Below the pieces are notes generated by a model. The model was not told where the DNA came from and did not search any database. It worked only from the letters and a program-made list of their open reading frames with translations. A DNA stretch of 64,000 nt from Somniosus microcephalus (taxonomy: Eukaryota), in NCBI GenBank assembly GCA_052327205.1, contig CM126209.1, positions 33,790,001 to 33,854,000 of the forward strand, written 5' to 3'. The position numbers and the translations under genes are program-made. Each line of letters opens with the position of its first letter. Position 1 is the stretch's first letter. Positions 1,127-27,734 of this stretch are shown here, piece after piece.

Positions 1127-2300
1127 ACCATGATCTCCCTCCAGTCCATGGGCTCTCCCAGGTACCAGGATCTCTATCCAGTTCCATGGGATCTCCCCAG
1201 GTACCAGGATCTCCCGCCAGTCCCATGGGCTCTCCCAGGTACCAGGATCTCGCTCCAGTCACATGGGCTCTCCCAGGTACCAGGATCTCGCTCCAGTCAC
1301 ATGGGCTCTCCCTGGTACCAGGATCTCCCTCCAGTCCCATGGGCTCTCCCCGGTACCAGGATCTCCCGCCAGTCCCATGGGCTCTCCCAGGTACCAGGAT
1401 CTCCCTCCAGTCCCATGGGCTCTCCCTGGTACCAGGATCTCCCACCAGTCCCATGGGCTCTCCCTGGTACCAGGATCTCCCTCCAGTCCCATGGGCACTC
1501 CCCGGTACCAGGATCTCCCTCCAGTCCCATGGGCTCTCCCTGGTACCAGGATCTCCCTCCAGTCCCATGGGATCTCCCCAGGTACCAGGATCTCCCGCCA
1601 GTCCCATGGGCTCTCCCAGGTACCAGGATCTCGCTCCAGTCACATGGGCTCTCCCAGGTACCAGGATCTCGCTCCAGTCACATGGGCTCTCCCTGGTACC
1701 AGGATCTCCCTCCAGTCCCATGGGCTCTCCCCGGTACCAGGATCTCCCGCCAGTCCCATGGGCTCTCCCAGGTACCAGGATCTCCCTCCAGTCCCATGGG
1801 CTCTCCCTGGTACCAGGATCTCCCACCAGTCCCATGGGCTCTCCCTGGTACCAGGATCTCCCTCCAGTCCCATGGGCACTCCCCGGTACCAGGATCTCCC
1901 TCCAGTCCCATGGGATCTCCCAGGTACCAGGATCTCCCTCCAGTCCCATGGGCTCTCCCTGGTACCAGGATCTCCCACCAGTCCCATGGGCTCTCCCTGG
2001 TACCAGGATCTCCCTCCAGTCCCATGGGCTCTCCCTGGTACCAGGATCTCCCTCCAGTCCCATGGGATCTCCCCAGGTACCAGGATCTCCCTCTAGTTCC
2101 ATGGGCTCTCCCAGGTACCAGGATCTCCATCCAGTCCCATGGGCTCTCCCAGGTACCAGGATCTCCCTCCAGTCCCATGGGTTCTCCCAGGTACCAGGAT
2201 CTCCATCCAGTCCCATGGGCACTCCCCGGTACCAGGATCTCCTGCCAGTCCCATGGGCTCTCCCCGGTACTGGGATCTCCAACCAGACCCATGGGCTCTC
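1127..2300. repeat. 38-bp GC-rich minisatellite (about 30 copies) with a ~381-bp higher-order repeat
   Basis: Unit CCATGGGCTCTCCCAGGTACCAGGATCTCCCTCCAGTC. The variant pattern recurs at a 381-bp offset (1186 vs 1567). Degenerate copies continue to about 2460. Confidence 0.97.
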
Positions 2301-2469
2301 CACCCCCTCATCCAATACCATGAGCCCCCTGTAGTACCACGGGCTCTCCCCCCACCCCAGCTACCACGAACTCCCTCCAGTCCTATGGGCTCCTTTCCCT
2401 TTCCTGGTACCATGAACTACATCCAGTACCACGTGCTCCCCCACTCGCCCACCCTGGTACCACAAGCTT

Positions 2470-3026: not shown

Positions 3027-4039
3027 GGTCTCCCCCTTCCCCCCCCCCGCCAGTACAACAAGCTCCCTCCAGTACTGCAGGCTTCTCTCTCACTAATCAT
3101 GGGTAAATGGGAGTAATAGTGGTTACCAGAAAACAAACCAGTGGTATATACCAACGAGGCCTGGCATTCCTCAATCAGGGTTGTGGCAATCATAAGTTCT
3201 GTGGCCAGCCCAACTCGGTTGTTTGTTTTTTGTAAATCACCGGTCCCCAGCACGTCATCTATAACCACTTTATCTCACATCTGTGGCACTCCACAGCTTC
3301 TTACTAATTCCACACAGGGAAATGAAGCCAGAATCAATGCAAGACCAGGTAAACACAAAACTTTGTAATTAATAAAAACTAAGAATGTCACTAATCATCT
3401 GTAAATATGATATCCAGGAGTCAAAGATAACCCACAACTTCTTTTCTCCACTAACTTAAACCTCTCTCTCCTGCCCCCTCCACCATCAGTTTGATCAACT
3501 AAGTTCTCACTAACAAGTACACCACCGTGTGGAAGTGGTGTCAAAGGCCTAGTGCCTCCCTAAAAGGCAAGGGGATATTGGATGCAGAGCTATTAATAGA
3601 TAGGTGTAGAGTGCCATTGGCCTAGGAATAGGTTGCTTACTCACCCTATCACCTGCTTAAGGTGTGTTCCAGTGAGACATGAATGGCCAAGAAAAAAAAA
3701 AGGTAAAGCAGAAGGATTTCATGTTCTCATTTAAAAAGTCCAAATGGTGAGCTGATGGTCTTGTACCACTGGGTGAGATTCCCTCTCGAGGCATAAGACA
3801 GAACGGTATGGAGCAAAGAGGTAGCTGTCCTCCTGGTCTCTGGCTTCCAACCTCCAGGCAACCATTCTAACTGTTCCCCATCTGATCTTCAGTATTGTAA
3901 AATTAATCAATTTGCTTTAACTGCTAAAATTAAATTATCTTTCCTAAAGTGGGCTACATTATAAGTGTTTGATTTGGTTTGATCAACCCAAACATTACTG
4001 AACAGTCCCAGCAGGCCACCTCACTTGGAACCATCACCT

Positions 4040-4655: not shown

Positions 4656-5238
4656 TGACATGAATCAGTCATTCATGAAAGAAAGACTTATCACAGAATC
4701 ACAGAAACCCCACAGTGCAGATAGAGGCCATTTCGGCCCATCGAGCCTGCACCGACACATATCCCACCCGATCCCCGTAACCCCTACACCAACACATATC
4801 CCACCCTATCCCTGTAACCCCACGTATTTAATCCCCCTAACACTAAGGGTCAATTTATCATAGCCAATCAACCTAACCCGCACATCTTTGGAGTGTGGGA
4901 GGAAACCGGAGCACCCGGCGAAAACCCACACAAACACGGGGAGAATGTGCAAACTCCACACAGACAGTCGCCCGAGGCCGGATTCAAACCCGGGTCCCTG
5001 ACGCTGTGAAGCAACAGTGCTAACCACTATGCCACCGTGCTGCTTATGAAATAATACTGAGCGGCCTACGGGTGGCGCTGTCCAGGGAGAGTATAAATAC
5101 TTGGGCATGGGCCCAGCTTGCACAGGACATTCTTAACAGAAACTAGTGAAGGACACAACTAGACCTCCATGTTGTAAAACAGTTGATTAAAGCTTTGTTT
5201 AACGCTTAGACCAAGTGCCTGGTAGTTTTCTTACGTCA
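4656..5238 (+). mobile_element. Solo-LTR-like element, copy A, interrupted by an HE1 SINE
   Basis: TGACA...CGTCA termini, 5-bp TSD GCCTC (4651-4655 and 5239-5243), TATAAATA and ATTAAA inside. Homologous to 5659-5885. Confidence 0.8.
4692..5042 (-). mobile_element. HE1 (V-SINE) element
   Basis: Minus strand has the tRNA-like head GGCACGGTGGCATAGTGGTTAGCACTG...GGGTTTGAATCC, the V-domain GGAGTTTGCACATTCTCCCCGTG and a CR1-like tail. Flanked by CTTAT repeats. Confidence 0.88.
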
Positions 5239-5658
5239 GCCTCTTTCTGTGCTGTATAACTCTTTCTTCAATAGTGCGTACCATTCTTAAAAGATCAGTC
5301 TTTATAACACCTGAACTGTGGTACACAACCTTAAATGTGGAAGTCAGGGCCTTTCTCCCGCTGCAGTCCATCTATCACACTGGAGATATACAACACAAAC
5401 ATAAGCATTAACCATCAGATTTTTAAGCTTATGGCTTTTCAAGCCATGTATCAGCTTGCCTGCATTTTACAAGAAAAATCAGCTTTATTCACTGGTGTTG
5501 GAGGTTGTCAGTATCAATTAATCATTTCATTTGGAAGGTGGAACTGAAGTCTGTCGAAACCAAATAAGTTGGTGAGCAAGACTCCAGCCAGACTTCACTT
5601 AATCACATTGTTTGTTGTGAACAACCCTGAGGCAAATAAGCAGCTGAAATGCAGCTTC

Positions 5659-5885
5659 TGACATAAATCGTGCCATTTATGTAGAAAGGACTTATGAAAT
5701 ATACTGGGCGGCCTGCTGGCGGCGCTGTCCAGGGAGAGTATAAATACTCGGGCACAGGCCCAGCTTGCTTGGGACATTTTGTAAACAGGAACTAGTGAAG
5801 GATAACTAGACCTCCATGTTGTGAAACAGTCGATTAAAGCCTTGTTTAATACTCTGACCAAGTGCCTAGTAGTTTTCTTACGTCA
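5659..5885 (+). mobile_element. Solo-LTR-like element, copy B (227 bp)
   Basis: TGACA...CGTCA termini, TSD GCTTC (5654-5658 and 5886-5890), TATA box and ATTAAA. Confidence 0.82.
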
Positions 5886-6257
5886 GCTTCTATATTTTGT
5901 TTTAAAATTTGCTCTCAAGAAGAACTTCTTGGGTCATGCCTGACTGTTGTTTTATGTTAAGGTTTAATTTCTTCAATACTGGTTGCAGTTGTTTTTTTCA
6001 GACTAGCTGGATGTTCTTGGGTGAAATGCATTAACTAGCTTTGTTTGGCAATTTCTGTCACTGTACTTGTGCAATTGCCTAGGCTTGAAAATGAAATCAG
6101 GAGTGGGGTTCGATATATGATGTGTTATGCGTAATGAAAATACAGAGATTCACACTCAGAACTGCAGTTGGCTCCAAAATGCCCAAAAATTACCAAGTCA
6201 AGTGTCAAAAACAAAAATATTCTGGAAGGGCCATGCCCCTATATCTAATTGAGTACT

Positions 6258-7540: not shown

Positions 7541-8884
7541 AATAGAATACTTCAGTCGCTTACAAGCCTTTATTTACAGAGACACGTCTTACATACCATG
7601 CACCCCAAGATAAGCTATTCCCCTTCCCGAGCCTGCTCCCATATATATGAACACAAGAGAGTCCCCAATTAACACCCACTACCTGAATACAATTTACACT
7701 ACAGACGGAACACTGAAGATTCCTTTTCACAAAGAACTGAACAAGTGTCAGAGTGCCTTCAACCACCATCAGCTGTCTTCAGAAAGCAACAATTGTTTTG
7801 AGGACCTTCATAGTCCTTCTGTCTATTTTCCCTCTGGCTATCGTACAGAAAGTAGAATTCCAAATAGTTCTCCCTCAGGCTCCTATCACTGAAGATAAAG
7901 AAACTCCTTATTTGTTGAGTGCACATCATGAGCTGGATTTTATCTCACTCAATTCTGCTTCCTCTTCCTTCTGTACCATCATTCCAGAAACTAAAAAGAC
8001 TTCAGGGAAGGACTCCACATTTTCAAAGGCACACTAGAGAAGCAATACCATTTCCGTTCTTGACACTCCTCAGTTCTTCTCTCTTCCCACCCTTGCACAT
8101 TATCTGAGTTTCAGATCTGATTGTATTCAAGGAAACTAAAACTCTGCCACAAAAAAGAAAGACTTCTGTGTGGAACTCACCTTGTAAACCTCGTGCCCCA
8201 CCCAGTGCTTCACAGTTTTTACATTCCTGTGGTGGATACCGGTTTTGAATTTTACTAAATAGATCAAGTCACTTTTAAAATGCAATTATGATTGATAAGA
8301 TGTCCCTTATCACATCCACTATTCCAGCTGACAGCTCTGGTCAAGCTTTATAAGAGTCCCCATCATAGGGCTATTTGATTATCTTTTGATGACCCTCCAG
8401 GCCTTGGTTTCAACTCTTGCTGCCTCCCCTGCAGACTTTCCCTTTAGGGGGCACCTAGTCAAGAAAAACTCCTCACTGCAGTTTTGACATCAGTGGACCA
8501 ATTCGGTACTGAGTGTAAGTTTTCTCTCATCTAAGTTGTCTCTCAATCAGGATTATGTTTATTAAGAGGAGGCTACGGTCCTTCTTGGAGCCATAAATGC
8601 AACATCAATCAGTTGAGACACTTCTTCCTTGATTTACCACTTCCTTAATTTTAAAGAGTTTCCATAAGTCAAATGTACCTAAATTAATTTCAGGAAATCT
8701 TCTGATCACCACTTGACCAGTGCAACCTGCCTGTAGTCTGTCCAATGCACTGCAACTACAAAATCTTTTGAGACTCTTGTATGTATCCCCCTGTACACTT
8801 AAGAGTCAACCCCTAAAGTACTCTTAGTCTTGTCCTGGGTTTTGAGAATATTCGTTTTTGAGTGCGCTCCTACTGAGTAAAAAA

Positions 8885-14240: not shown

Positions 14241-14694
14241 TTGGAGGGGGAAAAGGAAAAGTTTAACAATCGCAGGTAGTAGTTTACGGAAAAAGAACGA
14301 ATCTATCGGAAATATAGTTCACGTTGAAAGTACTTCCAAACGTTACTTTTCTGTTTTAACTAAAATATTAAACTAATCCTGACATGTATTACAAAGTGAA
14401 GTAAATCCACAAGTAAATAAAAGATTTAACTGAAAAGACGGACAAGCTTTTAAAATTCAAACAAGCAATAGGTCCATTATTAAAAGTGAAGGACCCTGAG
14501 GTTTCAAGTTCTGAATAAGTTATTGATAAATTTAGGTTCTACTCACCAGACTGTTCCAATGTGCATCTCAGTGATGCTTCTCACAGTTATGATGCTCATT
14601 ATAATATCTATAACACCATAAAAAAAAACAAGGGAGCATTGTAGAATCAGAATTTCAATAAGTAATCTGTTAACTAATCAAATGGCTATATCAT

Positions 14695-14874
14695 TGTTGT
14701 GTATGTACCTTTAAGGGAAGAACTGATTCTATACTGCAGTACCGGCAGTGACCACCCCTGTATATAAAGCCATAGCAGGCTTCTGTATTTCAGTCTTGAG
14801 TTCCCCTCTGTTCAGTAAATACCTGTTTTATTGTTCTCCTGCAGTCCGAGTATTATTGATACCCGGACACTACA
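14695..14874 (+). repeat. Element 1 5' LTR
   Basis: TG...CA. Three mismatches in 180 bp against the 3' LTR by eye. TATATAAA inside. Confidence 0.96.
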
Positions 14875-14875
14875 C

Positions 14876-14898
14876 TGGCGACGGGCAGGTTCGAACTC
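14876..14898 (+). promoter_or_regulatory. Primer binding site, tRNA-Ser-like
   Basis: TGGCGACGGGCAGGTTCGAAC begins 1 nt after the LTR. TGGCGACG is complementary to the 3' end of tRNA-Ser(GCT). Confidence 0.75.
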
Positions 14899-15411
14899 AC
14901 CTGCAGTACTGCATCACCTCACGGGGATCTTTTCCCTGAAGAGAAGCTTCTTGGAGGTCGAAGTCAGAACGGCGGGCGTCGACCGCGGGCAACCGCCCAG
15001 GGATCCATCGGAGAGTTGCAGGGGAGGCTGTGGAGAGCTGGGCCTGGCTCCCCAGTCGAGGTGTTCCAGCAAGTCGTGCTGGTAGCAGGTAGTGCGCTGA
15101 CCCTTCCGGACTGCGGCGGGCTCGGGCTCGATCGAGCGGCTCTGCAAAGGGGCCGTGCAGCGTCGTCGGGAGGAAGAGAGAGAGGGTGGAGCGCACAGGG
15201 CGTGGTCGGTGCTCAAGAACCAGGCAGCGTGGAGAGGATAGAACGAGGGGAAGAAAAAGTGATACGCGCCGAAGCCGCGGGCCACCATTACCCTGTAGAA
15301 CGCTAAGAGCAGCGTGGCAGTAAGGAGAAGAAGCAAAAGCGCGGGAGGCGCTATTTTATTCCATTGGGGAAGAAGAAAATGCGCGGGAGGCGCCATTTTA
15401 AATCACTCAAG

Positions 15412-18400
15412 ATGCCGAAGAGTGGTAGTATCACTGCTTTCGACAACGAGGTAGAAGACTGGACCACATATGTGGAAAGAATTGAAGTGTACTGCGAGGC
15501 AAATGAGGTGGCCGATGGAAAGGCGGCGTCGGTATTATTAAATTTGATGGGCGCGAGAACGTACGGCTTATTGCGGAATTTAATTACCCCAGCTAAACCA
15601 ATGGAGAAAAGTTTTGAAGAGATTGTTAATACCTTACAGGAACACCTAAACCCTACACCGTTGCTGATAGCAGAAAGATTCAAGTTGCATAAAAGAAACC
15701 AGCACAAAGATGAGAGCAATGCTGACCATCTTACGGAACTACGCAAGTTATCGAAGCACTGCCAGTTCGGAGCAGGACTGGCAGACACCTTACGGGATAA
15801 GTTTGTCTGCGGGCTCCAGAGTGAAGGAACCCAGAAACGACTACTTTCGGAAAAGGACCTGACGCTAGAACAGGCTTTCAGCATGGCAGTATCCTACGAA
15901 GCAGCAGCACGGGGAGCTGCGGAAATACAACAGAAACCACAAGAATACAGCGCTAACGAAATGGCGTATGGAGCAGAAAAGTGCTATCGCTGCGGCAGAA
16001 CAACCCATGATCAGAAGGACTGCTGGTTTAAGGACAAAGTATGCAGGCAATGTGGGCAAATGGGACACATAGCAAGAGTCTGCAGGTCGGGAAAGAAAAC
16101 CAACACTACAAGAACTACTAAGGAAAAGTACAAGAAAGTAAAGAAATTGACAGACAGTAGTTCGGAAGATCAGGAGAGTGATAAGGACTCCGGGAGCAGG
16201 AGACTAAGTTGTCTAAAGTTACACAACGTGATCGCAAAGGAGGATCACCGAACCATTTGGGTCACCCTCAAGATAGCAGGGTCCCCAGTAAAGATGGAAT
16301 TGGACACAGGATCAACCCTAACTGTCATGAATCGATGAGACTATGAGCGGCTATTCCCACACATACCCTTGAAGGACACGTCCATTGTATTGAAGACATA
16401 CACGGGGCAAAAGGTCTACCCCAGAGGAAAAATAAGGGTGCCAGTTGAATACAACAGCAAGGAAACACAGAAACTGTATCTATATATACTACCAGATGGA
16501 GGACCACCATTATTGGGACGTGAATGGATCCGAAAAATACAATTGGATTGGCATTCCATTCAGGCGCTAACTGTGACTGATAAAAAGGATGATGACGTCA
16601 CACCTGGACGACTGTCAAAGATTCTAACTGACGCGAAAGAGGTGTTCCAACAAGGACTTGGGACTCTAAAAGGAGTAACGGCAACGATAAAAATCGAAGA
16701 TAACGCAAACCCAAAATTTCTTTAAGGCCAGACCAGTACCTTACGCGATCCGCCCAGCCGTTGAAGCAGAGCTGGAGAGTCTGGAGCGTTCGGGTGTGCT
16801 GTCCAAGGTGGACTGGAGCGAGTGGGCCACACCCATCATTCCTGTAATGAAGAAATCATTGAGCAGCACGCCTGGGGAACCGAAGAAGGTTCGCATCTGT
16901 GGGGACTTCAAGGTAACTGTGAACCCAGTCCTGCACACAGTACAATATCCACTTCCACGGATAGAAGATATTTTCGCCTCACTATCTGGAGGGAAACGCT
17001 TTACAAAGATTGATCTGTCCCAAGCGTATCTACAAATGGAGGTGGAAGAAGCATCTAGGAAATACCTCACGATAAACACTCACAAAGGCCTTTACCAGTA
17101 CAATCGACTGGTATTCGGGGTAGCATCAGCCCCGGCTATTTGGCAGAGGGCGATGGAACAAGTCCTGCAAGGGATCTCGGGGACCCAGTGTTATTTGGAC
17201 GACATCCTGGTTACGGGCGAAAATGACAGTGAACACCTTGCCAACCTGGAGCAGGTGCTCACGAGATTACAGGAATATGGGCTACGAGCCAACCGCCCCA
17301 AATGTGAGTTCTTCAGGAGACAAATCTCGTATTGTGGCCACATGATTGATGAGGAAGGGTTGCATAATTCGCCGGACAAGATTGAGGCTGTAGTCAAGGC
17401 TCCAGCACCGGAAAATGTGTCGCAACTGAGGTCGTTCCTCGGGTTAGTGAACTACTACCATAAGTTCTTGCCGAATTTATCTACAATTCTGCACCCACTG
17501 AACGCCCTCCCTGCTGCAAACTGGAGTAACATGGAAATGGAGTGATGAGTGTAAGCGTGCCTTTCAGAATGTAAATGCCTAATCACTTCAAAAGAAGTAT
17601 TGGCCCACTACAATCCAACACTACCGATTCGGTTAGCATGTGATGCGTCTCCCTATGGCATCGGAGCGGTGCTGTCACACAAATTCCTTGACGGTTCAGA
17701 GAGGCCAATAGCCTTTGCGTCGCGCTCGTTAACCTCAGCCGAGCGTAACTATGCCCAGATTGACAGGGAGGCCCTCAGCCTGGTGTGGGGGGTGAAGAAG
17801 TTCAATCACTATCTGCACGGGCAGAAATTCACCCTACTGACTGATCATCAGCCCCTGGTCTCCATTTTTAACCAAAAGAAGGGCGTTCCGGTGATGATGG
17901 CGCAACGGCTGCAAAGATGGTCACTTTTTCTAGGGGCACATCAGTACGACATAGAGTACAAGGGTACGAAACAGCATGGAAACGCTGATGGGCTGTCGCG
18001 CCTACCATTGCCTATGGTAGAGGAAGCACCTGCAGTGGACCCTGTTGAGATATTCCATGCGACCATAGTCGAATGTCTACCTGTTACAGACTCAAGTATA
18101 GAGAAGGAAACCCGAAATGACCCGACACTCTCTCGGGTCTATGATTTGACGGTGAAGGGATGGCCAGCACATGGCGACTCACTGTTGCCAGCATTCTCGC
18201 CAAGGAGAGAACAGCTGTCAGTGTGCCGGGGAACCTTGATGTGTGGATCCCGAGTGGTAAATGCACCAAAGTTGAGAGATAGAGTGCTCAATGAGCTTCA
18301 TGAGGGTCATCTGGGAGGGGTAAAAATGAAGAGCCTAGCCAGGGCGTTTGTGTGGTGGCCGGGAATCGATAAAGAAATCGAGGATATGACCAAGAGATGC

Positions 18401-19371
18401 ACAGGATGCCAGAAGGTCCAAAACGCTCCACCACAGGCCCCGCTACATCCATGGGAGTGGCCCTCATCTCCATGGCAATGGGTACACATTGATTTTGCTG
18501 GTCCATTTATGGACTCAATGTTCCTAATCGCTGTGGACGCCCATTCGAAATGGCCAGAGGTCATCAAAATGTCCTCCACCCCACCACCACGGAGAAAACT
18601 ATTGCAGTCCTACGGACCATCTTCGCCAGGAATGGCTTGCCAGAACAGATTTGCTCCGACAATGGGCCACAGTTTGTGTCAGAGGATTTCCGGAGGTTTC
18701 TGAGGAATAATGGGGTGAAGCATTACACATCTGCCCCATATCATCCAGCCACAAATGGATTGGCTGAGAGGTTTGTTCAGACCTTTAAAAAGGCCATAAA
18801 GGCAATGCACAATGACGACATACCACAACACAAGGTGGATAATTTCTTGTTTGCTTACCGGAATGCGACACATGCAGTCACCAACCAAGCTCCAGCCATA
18901 ATGTTCTTCAACCGAAGGCTAAGATGTCGCCTGGATTTGCTCAAACCAAACATAAGACGAGATGTTGAGGATAAGCAATTCCAGCACATAAATGAGAAGC
19001 CAACCAGGAGCTTCAAGATAGGGCAACCAGTCTTGGCCCGCGACTACCGAACAGAAAAATGGCAGCCAGGAACGATATGCACACAGCAGGGACCACTAAT
19101 GTACACAGTGGACGTTGGCGGGAGCATCATGAGACGCCGTGCTGACCAGATTCTAGAGTCACAGGAACAAGCCAAACCCATACCACGAGCAGGTGCACCT
19201 GGTAATCAACCCGAAGTACAGATTGCGTCTACCTCAGAAGCAATGGTATTGGAAGCTGACAAACCAACCAATGACAATGAGCCAGAATCAACTCCACCGC
19301 AAGAACAGGATACTCGAGAAAGGCGCTATCCAGTCAGGATCAGGAAGCCTCCTCAAAGACTGAACTTATAA
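15412..19371 (+). pseudogene. Element 1 gag-pol polyprotein, disrupted
   Basis: Two CCHC knuckles, protease LDTGS, RT YLDD, RNaseH CDASPYG, integrase HHCC plus HIDFAG/SDNGPQF/GLAERF, ending PPQRLNL*. Stop at 16336-16338 and frameshifts near 16720, 17508, 17575 and 18580. Confidence 0.95.
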
Positions 19372-19467
19372 ATGATTATTTCAGTTGATGTATATAGTAC
19401 AGAGAAAATTGTAATTGTAATTAGTTATTATTTAAGTTGTTAAATGAATGTTATGTACTGTTTATCT

Positions 19468-19480
19468 AAAAGGGGAGGAA
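19468..19480 (+). promoter_or_regulatory. Polypurine tract, element 1
   Basis: AAAAGGGGAGGAA just before the 3' LTR. Confidence 0.9.
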
Positions 19481-19481
19481 T

Positions 19482-19661
19482 TGTTATGTATGTACCTTTA
19501 AGAGAAGTACTGATTCTATACTGCAGTACCGGCAGTGACCACCCCTGTATATAAAGCCATAGCAGGCTTCTGTATTTCAGTCTTGAGTTCCCCTCTGTTC
19601 AGTAAATACCTGTTTTATTGTTCTCCTGCAGTCCGAGTATTATTGATACCCGGACACTACA
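19482..19661 (+). repeat. Element 1 3' LTR
   Basis: Direct repeat of 14695-14874, followed by TSD ATCAT. Confidence 0.96.
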
Positions 19662-21110: not shown

Positions 21111-22175
21111 TGACTTGATTAATTGCACAGATTTCATCTTGATTTCCATTGTCCTGGTTATTTCCAAACTTTTACATAAAGTCCTAAGGGTCCAAAGGTT
21201 CGATCAAGAGTTCAAAGAGAATGTGAAAGGTCTGCAAACTCCTCTTCAGTTCACTCTATCAATCCTATACGATACAAGAACTGGCAAGAGGCACAAATCT
21301 ATCCGGCTAGACAGAGGGTATTTCAGCTGGTGAAGCAAAGCACATAGTAACTTACTGAAGAACAGATCAGATATTGTGCAAAACTAGTTGGGCAAAGCAG
21401 TCCATTAGTGAGTCTTATCTAAAATGAACAAATATGAATGGCTTATCCTCGCTGTCTCCAATTACAGTCTCCCGGTCATTTATTTAAATCCAGAAAGCTT
21501 TACTGTAGCTCAAATAGTACCTCAAACATCCAGCTGTCCACTTCTCAATAACACCATGTGCAGCAAAGGCGGTGTCAATCGGTCAGTCTCCATTAGCTGA
21601 AACCTTCTCCGTGTGGCCTCATATTAGAGAAAAAAATAACAATGCACTGGATAAGGTTGAATAATATTACAATAAATTACCTCAGAAATGCCATTAGTTG
21701 TAAAACCCTAATAGTCCTTTTAAAATTAAAATAATTTACCTGAGAAAGGACCACATAACAGCCATCATTGAGCTGGTTTTATGTTCAATGGAGGTTCGCT
21801 ATGCAACTGGGAGATGTAACTTGGTTTGGTAAGAAAAAGGTTCAAAAAATCAATGTTGCTTAACTGGGACAATATCTTTATTTCTGCCAGAAAAACAGAA
21901 AACGCTGAATATGCAGTATCAAAAATAAAATAAAAGTTTTGGATGTAATCCTTCACCGAAACTGGGATTTCTTTCAGATGCTAATCATGCTATTACACAC
22001 TTCCACGATTTTCTCTCTTTATTTCAGATTTCAACATTCACAGTTTATATTTCTGTACCTCACGGGCTTTTAAGAGTATGGTGGGAATTTTAACTCCCCA
22101 CCTGGGGTGGAAACCAAGTCGGCGGGTTTGGCTGTCATTTATGCAAATTAGGGTCCTATTATATCATGAGGACCC

Positions 22176-22431
22176 TGTAGTGTATGTAACCATTCTACCT
22201 TTAAGAGAACTATTGTATGTAACTGTCCACCTTTAAGAGAACTATTTTAGGTGTTGCACTACTTTATCTTGGCTGCTGTATACTGTAATACCGGGAGTGA
22301 CCACACCGGTATATAAGTGCTGTGTAAGGATTTATTGGGCAGATTCGCCCTGACCTTCGAATAGTAAAGTCCTGTTAAAGTTACTCTTGTAGTCTGTGTA
22401 TTGATTCACCATATAACCCACAGACTTTACA
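22176..22431 (+). repeat. Element 2 5' LTR
   Basis: TG...CA. Three mismatches in 256 bp against the 3' LTR. Internal ~33-bp tandem duplication at its start. Confidence 0.96.
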
Positions 22432-22432
22432 G

Positions 22433-22448
22433 TGGCGACGGGTTCGAT
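22433..22448 (+). promoter_or_regulatory. Primer binding site, tRNA-Ser-like
   Basis: TGGCGACGGGTTCGA. First 10 nt are identical to the element 1 PBS. Confidence 0.75.
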
Positions 22449-22799
22449 CTTACCCTGCGGCAGCGACACACCCGAAGCAGTTAACGAGCGTCGAGAAGAG
22501 GCACCCGCCCTCGTCGTTCGGCTGAGAGAAGACTCGAGTCTGCAGAGCAAGGAAGAAGGAAGGATTCAGACACGAAGCCTTCCATCAGCAACAGGCTGTT
22601 ATTGTCCCTTCTGCCACGGCGGTGAGTGAGCCGATCAGCCAAGAGAAGCAAGTCGGCCACGTTGACTGTGAGTAGGGGGAAAATAAAAAGAAACGGAGGA
22701 TAAGGGCGGTGAACTCGACCACGGTCGGGGGAAAGGAGCCGGACAGAAGTCGGGCCCAGAGGCGCTGAGACTGGGGCAGCGTAGGGCACGGAAGCCACG

Positions 22800-22882
22800 G
22801 TACAAGCGGGAACGCAGCCGGTGTGAGAGACCGGGCTACAAGCGGGAACGCAGCCGGGGTGAGAGATCGGGCTACAAGCGGG
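22800..22882 (+). repeat. 36-bp tandem repeat (about 2.3 copies) in the element 2 leader
   Basis: TACAAGCGGGAACGCAGCCGG(T/G)GTGAGAGA(C/T)CGGGC repeated. Confidence 0.85.
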
Positions 22883-23473
22883 CTGGGAGACGCAACAGCG
22901 TCGTGAGACAGCTAGACCGCGACCGGCGAAAAAGGCCGGGCAGCTACTGAGGCCACGAAGCGCTGCGACCGGGATCGTAAGGCGCGGGAAGATATAAAAA
23001 TAAATAAAACCGCGGAGAACTCAGCCGCAGCCGGGGGAGGAAAGGACCGGACTGCGAGAGGGCTGGGAGGCGCGATTGGAAGCCGCTGAGGGAGAGACAG
23101 AGCCCAAGTGAAGGGGGAACGGGACTGAGCGAGGGAGACCGAGCGAGATTCCGCCCAGCGGCTGGAACTGTTCGCCGCCAACGGGTTGTCCCCAGCGCCG
23201 GTTGCCGGCCGAGAAAAGGGAACAAGGAACGCACTGAAGCCGGCGCGCAGGCTGCGAACTCCGAAAGCCAGCGGTCGTCGCCCGAAGGAAAGCTTACCCC
23301 TCCCGCCAGGGGAAGAAACGTGGGAAGCCGCCAGTAGGCGGGGAAGAAGACAGAAGCGGGAAACCGCCATTTTGAAAGTGGGCGGGGAAGAAGACAAGCG
23401 CGGGAAACCGCCATTTTTGGAAAAAAAAAGGTAACGAACAAATTCGTTGCGGTTTCTCAAAAAGATAGTGAAG

Positions 23474-26074
23474 ATGCCTAAGCATGGTAACATCAACAAC
23501 TTCGATTCCGAGGTGGAAGATTGGGCCACGTACGTAGAACGCATCGAGATATATTGTGAGGCCAGTAAAATAGCAGATGATAAAGCTCTCACCTTATTAA
23601 ACGCAATGGGGGCGAAGACATACGGGCTATTGAAGCATCTTCTATCACCAGCTAAACCGGCGGATCAGACTTTCGCTGATATTGTTGCTGTCCTGAAGGA
23701 TCATTTGAACCCCACACCGCTGATGTTGGCGGAACGATTCAAATTTTATGCGAGAACGCAACGGAAAGAGGAAAGCAACGCGGAATACTTGGTCGAACTG
23801 CGTAGACTAGCGAAATACTGCCAGTTTGGGGAAAAGCTGACAGAGGCATTGAGAGACAAGTTCGTGTGTGGGTTGTCGAAGGAAGGAACACAAAAGCGAC
23901 TGCTCGAAGAGAACGATCTTACACTTGACAAGGCTGTCCTTATTGCAGCATCACACGAAGCAGCCGCGAGAGGCACTGCGGAAATGCAGCTGAAGGCAGC
24001 GGTACTCAGCGTGGATCAAATGACTTCGGGTACAACAAAATGTTATCGTTGTGGGAAGACAACACACGACCAGAACCAATGCTGGTTTAAAAACCAGGAA
24101 TGTAGAAAATGTGGCAAGCTTGGTCACATAGCTAAAGTATGCTGGTCAGGAAAGAAGACCAACAACAGAAAAAAGTCACCGCAGGAAAAGTACAGCAAGG
24201 TACACAAGGTGGCTGAGAAGAGTTCAGGTGAACAGAATTCGGATTCAGACCCGAACGGCCAGGAACTGGGTAGTCTGAGAATTCACAATGTGAGTAAGGA
24301 AGCTGACCTACAAACTATCTGGGTCACACTAAAAGTAGCCGGAGTCCAAGTGAAAATGGAATTGGACACAGGATCAGCCCTATCAGTCATAAATCGAAGG
24401 GATTACAACCGGCTATTCTCACATATACCCTTGAGAGATACCAAGATCGTATTGCAGACATACACGGGGCATAAAGTATACCCCATGGGAAAGATACAAG
24501 TCAAGGTGAGAGACAGGGGCAAAGAACACCAAGGAATGGACTTATATGTACTACCTGAGGGAGGTCTACCACTTCTGGGACGGGAGTGGATCAGGGAAAT
24601 AAACATGGAATGGCACTACCTAAAAGCAATAACGAGTGAGAACTCGGTGAAGACAATCAGCTCAGACTCTGAAACGGATGACGACAAGACCAGCCCAGGT
24701 GCGAAAGATAAGTCTAAAATGGACTTGCTGACTAAGATTGGAAAAACGAAGGAGTGCATAAATACTGATGCTTCAAAGGAGAACAAAGTTTCAGAACAGA
24801 ATTCCACTGAACAACAACATAGTTTGGCAGAGAATTCTGAGTCTGTCCAGTTTACAGACATGCACAAGTCTGAGGAACACCGGGCTCGAACTCAACTCCA
24901 TTTCAAATTACAACAGCAATTAGAACAATTGAGTTGCCGTCTCGAGCAAGAGATAAAAGCAATGAAAACGTTCTTTGACACAGAGTGGGAGAATCTGGAA
25001 AGACAACAGAAACAGCTGAGGGAGAAAAGGGAGCAGGAGCACACAAACCGTCTGCGCAAGGAGGCCAAACGAATCAAAGCTGATTCGGTTTCTGAAGGTG
25101 CGTGCTCTAATCTGGTGGAGCAAGAGGTTCAGCAACTGAAGGTGCTTGTTAGCAGATTGCAGGCAGAAAAGGCTGAGTTGGTCGCCATGAATTCCGAGCT
25201 CCTACTGAAGTTGGGTGCAGCATCACCGGACGATTCATTTGTGGAAATTCGAATGGTGGAGGCTGCGGATGATGGCGAAGTAGAAACAGCAAAGGAGCCC
25301 CAGGGGGAGGTTATAAACAGCCCTGCAGCTACTGGGAAACGGATGAGGTCAGAAGAGTCAATGGTCAGCCAACTCCTTCATATGCTGAGGGACAAGACTC
25401 TGAAATGGGAACAATTTGGACATGAGTCTAAATCTTCAAAGGAGAGGGATTTGGAGCTCCCAAAAGTTATTGGAATAGCTGAGGTTGCAACACAGACTGA
25501 GAAGATGGCAGCAGAGCAAACCTTGGATGCCAAAAGTACGCTGATTCACGTCAATGTTGAACAACAGAATGCTGAAACAGCTGCTCCAGTAGAGGGATTG
25601 AATAATACAATCAATCAATCTCCCAATGAAGTTGAAGTATTGAAATCACGAATGAGGTCATTAGTAAAAGACTTGCAGGAAGCCCAGAAAAAGCTGGATG
25701 AAACTGAACGCATGAAGAAGTCTCTTCAGGAAAGATGTCTGGATTTGGAACAAAAGCTGGCTAACGTCCAGCTGGGTATGGAGGAAATAGAAGACCCTCT
25801 CGCTGGCTTAGCTCAGGACGACACCGAATATTACCATGACCTGTTGGACGACACCGAATATTACGATGACCTGCTCTGCCCAGCTTGTGATGAAAACTCC
25901 CAAAGTGCAGAAACCATGAAGAATCACCTAAAGTCTAAGGAACATCGGGAGATGGTGGCGCTACTACGGAAAAAGGAGGACGAGAAGGAGGAACGGTGCA
26001 TGCAGCTGGCAGCTGACAGTGGAGCCCAGAGAGTCTCCAAGAAGCAGAAAAGGAAAAGACGAAGCAGAAGATGA
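23474..26074 (+). CDS. Chimeric Gag-protease fused to STK10/SLK-like, optineurin-like and DNAJC21-like segments
   Basis: Uninterrupted frame. ATG 23474 aligns with element 1 MPK start. [33 protein letters not shown], then EEHR...[14 protein letters not shown]...[25 protein letters not shown]...DSFVEIRM...VSQLL...LQEA...MKKSLQE, and [10 protein letters not shown]...[17 protein letters not shown]. Confidence 0.9.
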
Positions 26075-26284
26075 TGACCATCTGAACCATTATCACCTCT
26101 ACCAGGTCACGCATGTGGTCTCTCCGTACGGAGCCAAACCAGTTTGGAAGTAGAAAAACTTCCCAAGGTACTCAAGCTTTTAAAAGTCAACAATGCTGGT
26201 TCAGAAGTGACGGAAGTTCAAGCTGTTAAGTCCAGTGAAGGACTATTGGATGAGTCACTCCAGCAACGTGAACCGACTACACCG

Positions 26285-26393
26285 AGACTGAATCTGTGAA
26301 CTGTTTTCCGCAGAGACTGAATCTGTGAACTGTTTCCCGCAGAGACTGAATCTGTGAACTGTTTCCGCAGAGACTACATCTGTGAACTGTTTT
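26285..26393 (+). repeat. Four copies of a 28-29-bp repeat containing the pol terminal codons
   Basis: AGACTGAATCTGTGAACTGTTTTCCGCAG. Across units it reads CCG CAG AGA CTG AAT CTG TGA (PQRLNL*). Confidence 0.9.
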
Positions 26394-26447
26394 TACATGA
26401 AGTTGGATATATGTTATGTTTAATGGGGAATAAGTAGGTTGTAAGCT

Positions 26448-26459
26448 AAAAAGGGAGGA
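26448..26459 (+). promoter_or_regulatory. Polypurine tract, element 2
   Basis: AAAAAGGGAGGA directly before the 3' LTR. Confidence 0.9.
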
Positions 26460-26460
26460 T

Positions 26461-26716
26461 TGTAGTGTATGTAACCGTTCTACCTTTAAGAGAACTATTG
26501 TATGTAACCGTCCACCTTTAAGAGAACTATTTTAGGTGTTGCACTACTTTATCTTGGCTGCTGTATACTGTAATACCGGGAGTGACCACACCGGTATATA
26601 AGTGCTGTGTAAGGATTTATTGGGCAGATTCGCCCTGACCTTCGAATAGTAAAGTCCTGTTAAAGTTACTCTTGTAGTCTGTGTATTAATTCACCATATA
26701 ACCCACAGACTTTACA
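26461..26716 (+). repeat. Element 2 3' LTR
   Basis: Direct repeat of 22176-22431, followed by GACCC. Confidence 0.96.
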
Positions 26717-27734
26717 GACCCCGATGCCCGGACTCGCTCCCTTCGCACGCAAACTGCCCCATCCCTGCAGTTACCTTAGGACCAGAGACCACCCAACTAT
26801 CCGCCACTCCCACCAAGGTCCCAGCCATGCAAGTCAGAAAGTCGGCCAGCAGCATGTTAACAAGGCTCAACTTTTAAAATTAGCCGCTCCTGGATGGTCT
26901 AGCCGTTCGCTAGCCCGCCTTCCCATCCAGGAGTTAAAATTCCCACCTGCATGTCTTTACAAAATATTCTGATGTTATGATCAGGCATAGCATTGCACAA
27001 TCTAAGAGCCAATCATTTTATGCAATCACTCACATTCTTATATGGCACAATCTATAAAAGTGTTTTTCAGCCTTTTCAAACTGAGAATTCACAATGTAAT
27101 GTTGGATAGGTTTTTATCCTCGGTAGGGACGTTCTGTGAAGCATTAGATGGAAGTTCAGTGCAGATTTAGTATGTGATTCTACATGGGAACTGATGCAGC
27201 CTGTCACATATGGAATGATGGCCTCTGATGATACTTGAACCCACAACCAATGAGGTGTGAGACAAATACTTCGCCACAGTGGCACCAGATTGCCTATTAA
27301 AGCAAGATTTTTTTTGTTTTAGGAAATAAGCTGTGGCATTATATTACTCTAAACTGTGGTTTTCAATAAAGGACAACATATTTATATCTAATATACTGCC
27401 ATAAATTCTGTTTATAATTAACATTCACATAGCAAAGACAATATGGTTTTGATTTATCCGGAGCAGATTATTTTACTCTGGCACTCTAATGAATACTTAT
27501 TGTTGGTCTGCTTCTGGTGGCCGTATGTGCCACATAATCAAACTCCCTGCAATGATTTTAACTGTCAGGATTACTAGCTTGCATTCATTTATCACGGGTT
27601 GTCTTTTTCAGGTTAGAAAATCATTTGTAGCCTCTTCATAGTTTCCGCATGTTGCAATTAAATCTTCCGAATTGCTAATAGATCTATTAGTGCACAAAGA
27701 GTCATCAGGTCTCTGTGCCCAGTGAAAAGCAAGA

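What the first reader, a model, noticed from the sequence alone, without database searches (positions are those of the whole stretch)
25110..25770. Captured optineurin segment keeps the LC3-interacting motif on a Gag polyprotein
Seen: [20 protein letters not shown]...[10 protein letters not shown] (LIR at 25229-25255)...EESMVSQLL...ATQTE...EVEVLK...[22 protein letters not shown]. Knowledge: human OPTN reads [20 protein letters not shown]...[10 protein letters not shown]...EELTVSQLL...ETQTE...[22 protein letters not shown]. FVEI binds LC3/GABARAP and the preceding Ser177 is phosphorylated by TBK1. The N-terminal TBK1-binding region and the C-terminal UBAN/zinc finger are missing. Inference: this could tether capsids to ATG8-positive membranes for assembly or secretion, or act as a decoy against autophagic restriction after protease release. 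It could also mark helper particles for destruction, which would be a host defence.
Basis: partly seen in the sequence, partly recalled or inferred. Interest (0 to 1): 0.88.

Follow-up and report, generated by a model that had tools for sequence, protein, structure and literature searches.

The report
Shark retrotransposon carrying a captured circRNA
The optineurin piece is real but looks like a passenger: it rides in a large family of shark jumping genes that first replaced their copying enzymes with exactly one lap of a circular RNA from the host gene STK10, later picked up pieces of four more host mRNAs, and in most copies have since lost the LC3-binding motif.

Summary
Confirmed: a spliced optineurin (OPTN) segment with an intact LIR lies in frame behind Gag-protease in a 4.5-kb LTR retrotransposon lacking RT, RNase H and integrase (window 22176-26716). 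A useful LIR is not supported. An OPTN marker occurs at 7,623 places, the LIR stretch at 2,170. Two in-frame deletions that remove the LIR occur at 3,956 and 1,668 places. Of 1,229 anchored LIR copies, 304 have lost the Phe. OPTN cargo amino acids evolve like private mutations (N/S 2.6 vs 2.2), unlike Gag (0.76 vs 2.9). Shared stops and frameshifts are rare, so selection keeps the frame open rather than the protein sequence.

The stronger finding lies upstream in the lineage. The founder replaced RT-RH-IN with one 1,245-nt lap of five STK10 exons, joined donor to upstream acceptor (8 of 8 full copies; junction at 1,142 places), which is the signature of a circRNA. Descendants added OPTN, DNAJC21, KMT2A and titin-like pieces, nearly always in frame. 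This is a new variant of LTR-mediated gene capture (maize Bs1; mouse circRNA pseudogenes), with base-level evidence for how a circRNA enters a genome. LIR loss as escape from autophagy stays possible, but is unproven.

The parts
22171..22175 (.). Target-site duplication GACCC, left copy (right copy 26717-26721)
   Evidence: flanks printed
22176..22431 (+). 5' LTR (TG...CA), TATA-like box at 22310
   Evidence: 3 mismatches over 257 nt to the 3' LTR
22433..22440 (+). Primer-binding-site-like TGGCGACG (tRNA identity not tested)
   Evidence: same motif after the neighbour's LTR
23474..24148 (+). Gag with two zinc knuckles; under purifying selection
24311..24633 (+). Aspartyl protease (LDTGS)
   Evidence: Pfam Asp_protease_2 above its cut-off
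24634..24875 (+). STK10 cargo, remnant of the start of the circRNA lap (STK10 aa ~400-478)
24872..25083 (+). STK10 cargo, PKK coiled coil (aa ~616-690), two host exons spliced; joined to the previous piece by an in-frame deletion
25075..25788 (+). OPTN cargo, six spliced host exons; entered at a 9-nt homology CAAAGCTGA and replaced the back-splice junction
25229..25255 (+). OPTN LIR/FIR motif DDSFVEIRM, identical in amino acids to the host
   Evidence: motif role from PMC7615515 passages
25778..25795 (+). MEEIED homology joining OPTN back to STK10 (exon after the back-splice)
25796..26056 (+). DNAJC21 cargo: C2H2 zinc finger and basic tail; host locus not located
   Evidence: 64% over 42 aa to Carcharodon DNAJC21
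26057..26254 (+). End of the STK10 lap (aa ~325-390), mostly past the stop at 26074, ending at TATTGGATGAG
26255..26300 (+). Remnant of the parent's integrase C-terminal tail
26447..26459 (+). Polypurine tract
26461..26716 (+). 3' LTR

Best explanation
This is one copy of a non-autonomous Ty3/gypsy-type LTR retrotransposon clade of a shark. SHOWN: the parent family encodes Gag-PR-RT-RH-IN. The founder of this clade has RT-RH-IN replaced by exactly one lap (1,245 nt, 415 codons, no stop) of five STK10 exons joined by a back-splice, between the PR-RT linker and the integrase tail. Descendants gained spliced pieces of OPTN, DNAJC21, KMT2A and a titin-like mRNA at short homologies, and lost other pieces. 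Gag is conserved, cargo amino acids are not, and the frame stays open until near the 3' LTR. INFERRED: a helper's RT switched template onto a co-packaged circSTK10 RNA inside a particle. It went round once, its RNase H destroying the template behind it, and switched back at a 12-nt match. The element makes its own Gag-PR and borrows RT and integrase. The cargo acts as translatable filler: an early stop would leave a long 3' UTR open to nonsense-mediated decay, or would break co-translational packaging. The LIR came along as a passenger and is dispensable.
For: Lap: donor ...AAGAAAGAG|gt is joined to the upstream acceptor aacag|CACCCT, with element pieces 98.4-100% identical to host exons. The distance between the two homology copies is 1,245 nt in 8 of 8 full copies, with 8-13 mismatches to the rotated host exons. 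The junction occurs at 1,142 places, control 0. The parent's linker (7,737 places) shares TATTGGATGAGG with STK10. Parent domains. Selection, 122 loci, N/S of variants in >=3 loci vs singletons: Gag 59/78 vs 131/45 (P=2e-8); OPTN 101/39 vs 117/53 (P=0.54); STK10 125/45 vs 158/57 (P=1.0). Frame, in the four upstream cargo segments: shared indels 4 of 4 in frame vs 8 of 21 singletons (P=0.039); stops 2 of 183 vs 12 of 227 (P=0.026); shared -1 indels occur only in the tail. A hand tally gives 20 of 21 junctions in frame (4e-9 at one third). LIR loss. The family is transcribed in 2 of 2 RNA runs laid, mostly sense in X7.
Against: circSTK10 itself was not observed: no RNA test was run on the host locus, and no inverted repeats were found between the upstream intron and the two downstream introns. 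Decay of stop-bearing RNA is untested. Gag synonymous divergence (0.29) exceeds cargo (0.11-0.16) in the window's copy, and the biggest subfamilies have a Gag region 76-77% identical to the parent copy, so part of the Gag signal comes from swaps with autonomous elements. The 122 loci are biased to the window's subfamily (46 were best hits to it) and to open frames, and omit the two deletion families. For those, only 2 copies were compared, and cargo dN/dS to host was 0.33-0.46 on small counts, so weak constraint on the coiled coil is not excluded. The 34-aa unchanged run round the window's LIR has P=0.037. The RNA runs share a species label with a DNA holder; fewer than 1,000 reads per run match at 99% or more, so expression of this locus is not shown.
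Confidence: 0.75

Rival explanations
1. The LIR was a liability. It tagged Gag-cargo protein or particles for ATG8/FIP200-dependent autophagy, so lineages that lost it multiplied. The history is as in the best explanation, but LIR loss was selected.
For: The two largest subfamilies each lost the LIR by a different in-frame deletion. Their shared marker occurs at 5,727 places; 93 of the first 100 lie beside one of the deletions and 0 of 100 beside a listed LIR. The Phe change sits at three separate places in the tree, one lineage going on to S-G-E-I. The same deletions appear as RNA joints (214 and 111 reads; 57 and 61 reads). Autophagy removes Ty1 particles through Atg19 (PMC4982230 passage).
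Against: Threefold recurrence is shared by 8 of 59 shared transversions, and LIR codons are not unusually variable. Many deletions spare the LIR. The big subfamilies also carry a different Gag and are shorter (3.4-3.8 kb vs 4.5 kb). The window's own LIR-intact subfamily has at least 150 copies at 96-100%. The host LIR needs TBK1 phosphorylation (PMC7615515), and the TBK1-binding end (position recalled) was not captured.
Confidence: 0.2
2. One reading: the LIR is kept because it tethers particles to ATG8 membranes or acts as a decoy, at least in the window's subfamily.
For: The LIR is intact in the window's copy inside a 34-aa unchanged run (P=0.037). DDSFVEIRM was read in the longest frame of 27 of the 30 closest copies; the other 3 had that frame broken elsewhere.
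Against: Most OPTN-bearing copies lack it. OPTN cargo N/S is neutral. Sister subfamilies with IVEI or SGEI amplified. The parent family moves without it (7,737 places). The 30 closest copies were chosen by similarity.
Confidence: 0.07
3. The permuted STK10 cargo came from linear mRNA by several template switches, or from a tandem exon duplication or trans-splicing, not from a circRNA.
For: This lineage switches template readily. Dong et al. note other routes to non-colinear junctions (PMC4897178).
Against: Both sides fall exactly on a donor and an acceptor with only 2 shared bases, whereas the other junctions lie inside exons at longer homologies. The insert is exactly one circle long. The five exons appear once in the 70 kb of host locus read.
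Confidence: 0.08

Closest known systems
LTR-mediated retroposition in animals (Tan et al. 2016, PMC5131818; passages read)
   Same: Internal ORF replaced by spliced host mRNA pieces at short homologies; multi-gene chimeras; often in frame; can move again as non-autonomous elements.
   Different: In the passages seen, retrocopies have one or a few insertions, and the word 'circular' does not occur in the main text. Here the first cargo is a whole circRNA lap, copies number in thousands, and five genes were captured in series with the frame held open.
Maize Bs1 (PMC13317346 and PMC5131818 passages; original papers not read)
   Same: LTR element with segments of three host genes forming a chimeric ORF.
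   Different: Vertebrate; circRNA founder; protease kept; many subfamilies allow a direct test, which finds cargo amino acids neutral.
Mouse circRNA-derived pseudogenes, circRFWD2 (Dong et al. 2016, PMC4897178; main text part 1 of 2 read; supplements not seen)
   Same: Back-splice junction fixed in DNA, many copies, LTR association.
   Different: There 33 high-confidence copies have LTR-enriched flanks and the mechanism is called mysterious. Here both switch points, the parent element and the exact one-lap length can be read, and the lap is fused in frame to Gag-PR. Their supplements may hold structures closer to this one.
Optineurin
   Same: Six spliced exons with the LIR/FIR motif, 83% aa identity to the host gene.
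   Different: No N-terminal part, UBAN or zinc finger; not a retrogene under constraint.

Membership tests
Non-autonomous Ty3/gypsy LTR retrotransposon | Two LTRs TG...CA with target-site duplication, PBS and PPT | tested here: met
Non-autonomous Ty3/gypsy LTR retrotransposon | Parent order PR-RT-RH-IN; RT, RH and IN missing in the element | tested here: met
Non-autonomous Ty3/gypsy LTR retrotransposon | Many dispersed young copies and a helper family in the genome | tested here: met
   (LTR pairs mostly 98-100%)
Non-autonomous Ty3/gypsy LTR retrotransposon | Clade by RT phylogeny (Mag-like is a recalled guess) | not tested
   no reference RT tree was built
LTR-mediated retrocopy (Tan/Bs1 type) | Intronless host cargo replacing internal ORF | tested here: met
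LTR-mediated retrocopy (Tan/Bs1 type) | Short homology at switch points | tested here: met
   12 nt at the 5' STK10 junction, 9 nt STK10/OPTN, only 3 nt at the integrase tail
circRNA-derived retrocopy | Non-colinear junction from a donor to an upstream acceptor | tested here: met
   in the window's copy the junction itself was replaced by OPTN, the permuted order remains
circRNA-derived retrocopy | The circRNA exists in the host | not tested
   the one read-laying run went to the element; element transcripts would carry the same junction
Functional LIR-bearing autophagy adaptor | Canonical F-x-x-I core with acidic/Ser flank | tested here: met
   consensus in PMC7615515
Functional LIR-bearing autophagy adaptor | Motif conserved above flanks across copies | tested here: not met
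   exception
Functional LIR-bearing autophagy adaptor | ATG8 binding and protein expression | not testable with these tools
   needs bench work

The most novel reading that the evidence does not exclude
A vertebrate LTR retrotransposon packaged a host circRNA and copied it for exactly one lap, founding a clade of thousands of parasites that keep sampling host mRNAs as in-frame filler. One captured piece, the optineurin LIR, worked as a self-destruct tag for autophagy and was purged several times, with the purged lineages now the most numerous. That would be a genomic record of autophagy restricting retrotransposons in a vertebrate germ line.
Probability: 0.2. Interest if true: 0.88.

Novelty: new variant of a known kind. 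Interest (0 to 1): 0.7.

Why it matters
How circRNAs get copied into genomes was left open by the paper that described such pseudogenes (PMC4897178). This clade keeps the parent element, both switch points and an exact one-lap insert, which points to template switching inside an LTR particle with a one-lap limit, and that can be tested. It also separates two things usually confounded in gene capture: an open frame is kept while the captured amino acids drift, so an intact motif in an intact chimeric ORF is not evidence of function. The subfamilies with and without the LIR form a natural experiment on autophagy against retrotransposons. Practically, these copies put more than a thousand false back-splice junctions and thousands of OPTN/STK10 fragments into this genome, which will mislead circRNA calling and gene annotation.

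Tried and rejected
Two predicted intermediates were not found: lap followed by RT (0 places) and the empty Gag-PR-tail deletion (0 places). A single two-switch event is therefore the simpler history, though it needs a lucky 12-nt match at the exit. C26:34.36 Mb, first taken for host STK10, is an element copy; the gene is on C8. The idea that the STK10 cargo came from another shark species was dropped: it is 98.4-100% identical to this genome's exons. The assembled host OPTN has two single-base insertions near an exon junction; those positions were left out of the references. One 'stop' in the protease tally (87 loci) is an artefact of a private codon in the reference copy, so the protease contrast (P=0.009) is approximate. 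No inverted repeats between the introns flanking the circle. Run search: no RNA holder listed; two raw RNA runs of the same label were laid instead. Atlas search of the unknown insert gave only sub-0.9 leads and Pfam gave nothing; a homolog search named it. The host DNAJC21 locus was swamped by element copies. No Gag-cargo chimera from another species appeared in the best 120 of 289 hits. Literature: no paper for 'circSTK10', none holding all six circRNA/RNase H/particle terms, none on this shark family in the 15 of 98 listed; some searches gave Dong 2016 and reviews; one search gave listings only. Most subscription papers are not searched. Earlier scan findings: none. No structure or complex prediction was run; a LIR-LC3 pair would pass by likeness to solved structures.

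Full report
Observation. The finding lies in an LTR element at 22176-26716: 257-nt repeats with 3 mismatches, a 5-bp target duplication, a PBS-like motif and a polypurine tract. Its one ORF (866 aa) has zinc knuckles and an aspartyl protease but no RT, RNase H or integrase. Residues 535-772 are optineurin: 69% to Pristiophorus OPTN and 83% to this genome's gene on C17, six exons with the introns gone. The LIR is at 25229-25255. The nearest proteins are shark proteins, so the host is taken to be a shark. The rest of the cargo is STK10 and DNAJC21. STK10 residues ~325-390 lie after residues 400-690, mostly past the stop, so the order is permuted.

The founder. A search with the STK10 stretch missing from the window gave 98 matches, most of them intronless. 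Full copies read Gag-PR, then STK10 from the middle of its large exon to the end of a later exon, then an earlier exon, then back to the starting point, then an integrase tail. Against the host gene on C8, the jump joins the donor ...AAGAAAGAG|gt to the upstream acceptor aacag|CACCCT, at 98.4-100% identity. The five exons sum to 1,245 nt with no stop when read round, and 8 of 8 full copies hold exactly 1,245 nt between two copies of TATTGGATGAG. The junction occurs at 1,142 places with up to 3 mismatches, control 0. The parent family has PR-RT-RH-IN. Its PR-RT linker (7,737 places) shares 12 nt with STK10 at the 5' junction; the 3' junction shares only GAG. This is what one lap round a circRNA would leave. 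The circle was not itself observed, and no flanking inverted repeats were found. Neither a lap-plus-RT nor an empty deletion form exists in the assembly, so I favour one event with two switches. The one-lap limit by RNase H is inference from how retroviral RT works.

Serial capture. Descendants deleted part of STK10 and took in OPTN across the back-splice junction at short homologies. DNAJC21 also occurs in a copy without OPTN (L116). Other copies carry a KMT2A piece (92% to P0124, 56% to a hit named KMT2A) and tandem I-set domains whose best solved match is titin ('titin-like' is not confirmed against the host gene). By hand tally from translations, 20 of 21 junctions keep the frame. The exception is the exit from DNAJC21 near the 3' end, which makes the window's stop. 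Some of these copies were found by protein search, which favours open frames.

Selection. In 122 loci I compared variants shared by three or more loci, which passed through transposing lineages, with singletons, mostly post-insertion. N/S: Gag 0.76 vs 2.91 (P=2e-8); protease 1.24 vs 2.72 (P=0.009, one artefact included); OPTN 2.59 vs 2.21 (P=0.54); STK10 2.78 vs 2.77 (P=1.0). Against sister subfamilies L183 and L187, the window's Gag has dS 0.134 and dN 0.015-0.023, while OPTN has dS 0.07-0.12 and dN 0.06-0.075. In the four upstream cargo segments, shared indels are in frame in 4 of 4 cases against 8 of 21 singletons, and stops are 2 of 183 against 12 of 227; shared -1 indels occur only in the tail. 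So the frame is kept, not the protein. Caveats: 46 of the 122 loci were best hits to the window; Gag is also renewed by swaps; the two largest subfamilies were not in this test, and the 2 of their copies compared gave cargo dN/dS 0.33-0.46 on 11-14 synonymous changes that include host-side changes.

The LIR. With exact anchors, 1,229 places hold the LIR region; 304 have A at the first base of the Phe codon, read as IVEI, SVEI or SGEI. RNA joints led to two in-frame deletions that remove it, at 3,956 and 1,668 places. Seven fetched copies confirm them: 6 of 7 have an open frame of 738-779 codons, and LTR pairs are 98.1-100% in the 6 that could be measured. Overall the LIR stretch is at 2,170 places and an OPTN exon-8 marker at 7,623; these are pattern counts with different tolerances, so the ratio is approximate. 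In the lineage of the two deletions (5,727 places), 93 of the first 100 lie by a deletion and none by a listed LIR (LIR listings show only some matches). Point losses are not exceptional: 69 of 238 windows have as many shared changes, and 8 of 59 shared transversions recur three times on the 66-row tree (41 near-identical window-like loci were left out of it). Against my reading, the window's longest unchanged run, 34 aa, holds the LIR (P=0.037).

Expression. Two RNA runs of one study, labelled as the same species as a DNA holder, gave 23,973 and 23,136 reads at 90% or more, covering 30 of 30 bins. X7 was mostly sense over the cargo, X8 mixed; only 994 and 863 reads matched at 99% or more. The family is transcribed in that organism; this locus and any protein are not shown.

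Mechanism. Shown: anatomy, parentage, one-lap insert, serial in-frame capture, conserved Gag, neutral OPTN and STK10 amino acids, frequent LIR loss. Inferred: capture by template switching on co-packaged RNA (model in PMC5131818, passages); own Gag-PR with borrowed RT and integrase; open frame kept to avoid decay or to allow packaging (own knowledge of NMD, untested). The absence of the empty form hints that some filler is needed, but may be chance. Odds: passenger LIR about 0.7, liability 0.2, useful 0.07.

Comparison. It is a member of the LTR-mediated capture kind (Tan 2016; Bs1) and works like the circRNA pseudogenes of Dong 2016. It differs in scale, in the readable one-lap junctions and in serial capture. 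My searches found no description of this family, within a library that lacks most subscription papers. Papers seen: PMC4897178 main text part 1 of 2; PMC5131818, PMC13317346, PMC5408686, PMC4982230 and PMC7615515 as passages; no supplements. The Mag-clade label and the position of OPTN's TBK1-binding region are recalled, from no call.

Verdict. Observation confirmed; LIR function not supported; the real interest is the circRNA-founded, cargo-swapping clade. New variant of a known kind, interest 0.70.

Noticed in passing
window 14694-19661: A second LTR element (182-nt repeats, 3 mismatches) with Gag-PR-RT-RH-IN broken by a stop and frameshifts; a more distant relative (73% in the protease region), not the direct parent.
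   Followed up: partly
G000:C3:354658271-354658948 (L091, L144): A separate intronless STK10 3' piece (277-aa frame to the natural C-terminus), outside the circle's exons; looks like an ordinary processed retrocopy.
   Followed up: partly
L075-L076, host OPTN near G000:C17:85884785-85885362: The assembled host OPTN has two single-base insertions in short runs and two A>C changes near an exon junction: assembly error or a broken allele.
   Followed up: partly
L139 3235-3705; L189, L191, L193: KMT2A cargo includes the QVDG motif, recalled as a taspase-1 cleavage site, so a host protease might cut these polyproteins.
   Followed up: partly
L190, L191, L193: Titin-like I-set cargo (640-960 nt) implies such mRNA met particles in germ line or early embryo; whether it came from a titin circRNA was not tested.
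   Followed up: partly
window 26036-26074 and other subfamilies: Every subfamily's frame ends in a Lys/Arg-rich tail although the source differs (integrase tail or DNAJC21); may be a by-product of shifted purine-rich sequence or a selected signal.
   Followed up: no
L126 (host STK10, G000:C8 near 167193683): One intron inside the circle has a GC donor.
   Followed up: no
window 1127-2301: 38-nt minisatellite, about 31 copies.
   Followed up: no
window 5054-5244 and 5701-5891: Two short direct repeats 647 nt apart with a TATA-like motif; possibly a small LTR-type element.
   Followed up: no
joint 25012>25769: An RNA joint skips 756 nt, removing nearly all OPTN in frame (16 reads in X7); not counted in the genome.
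   Followed up: no
L191 (reverse strand 2620-2982): A 360-nt SINE-like insertion inside the STK10 cargo of one copy.
   Followed up: no
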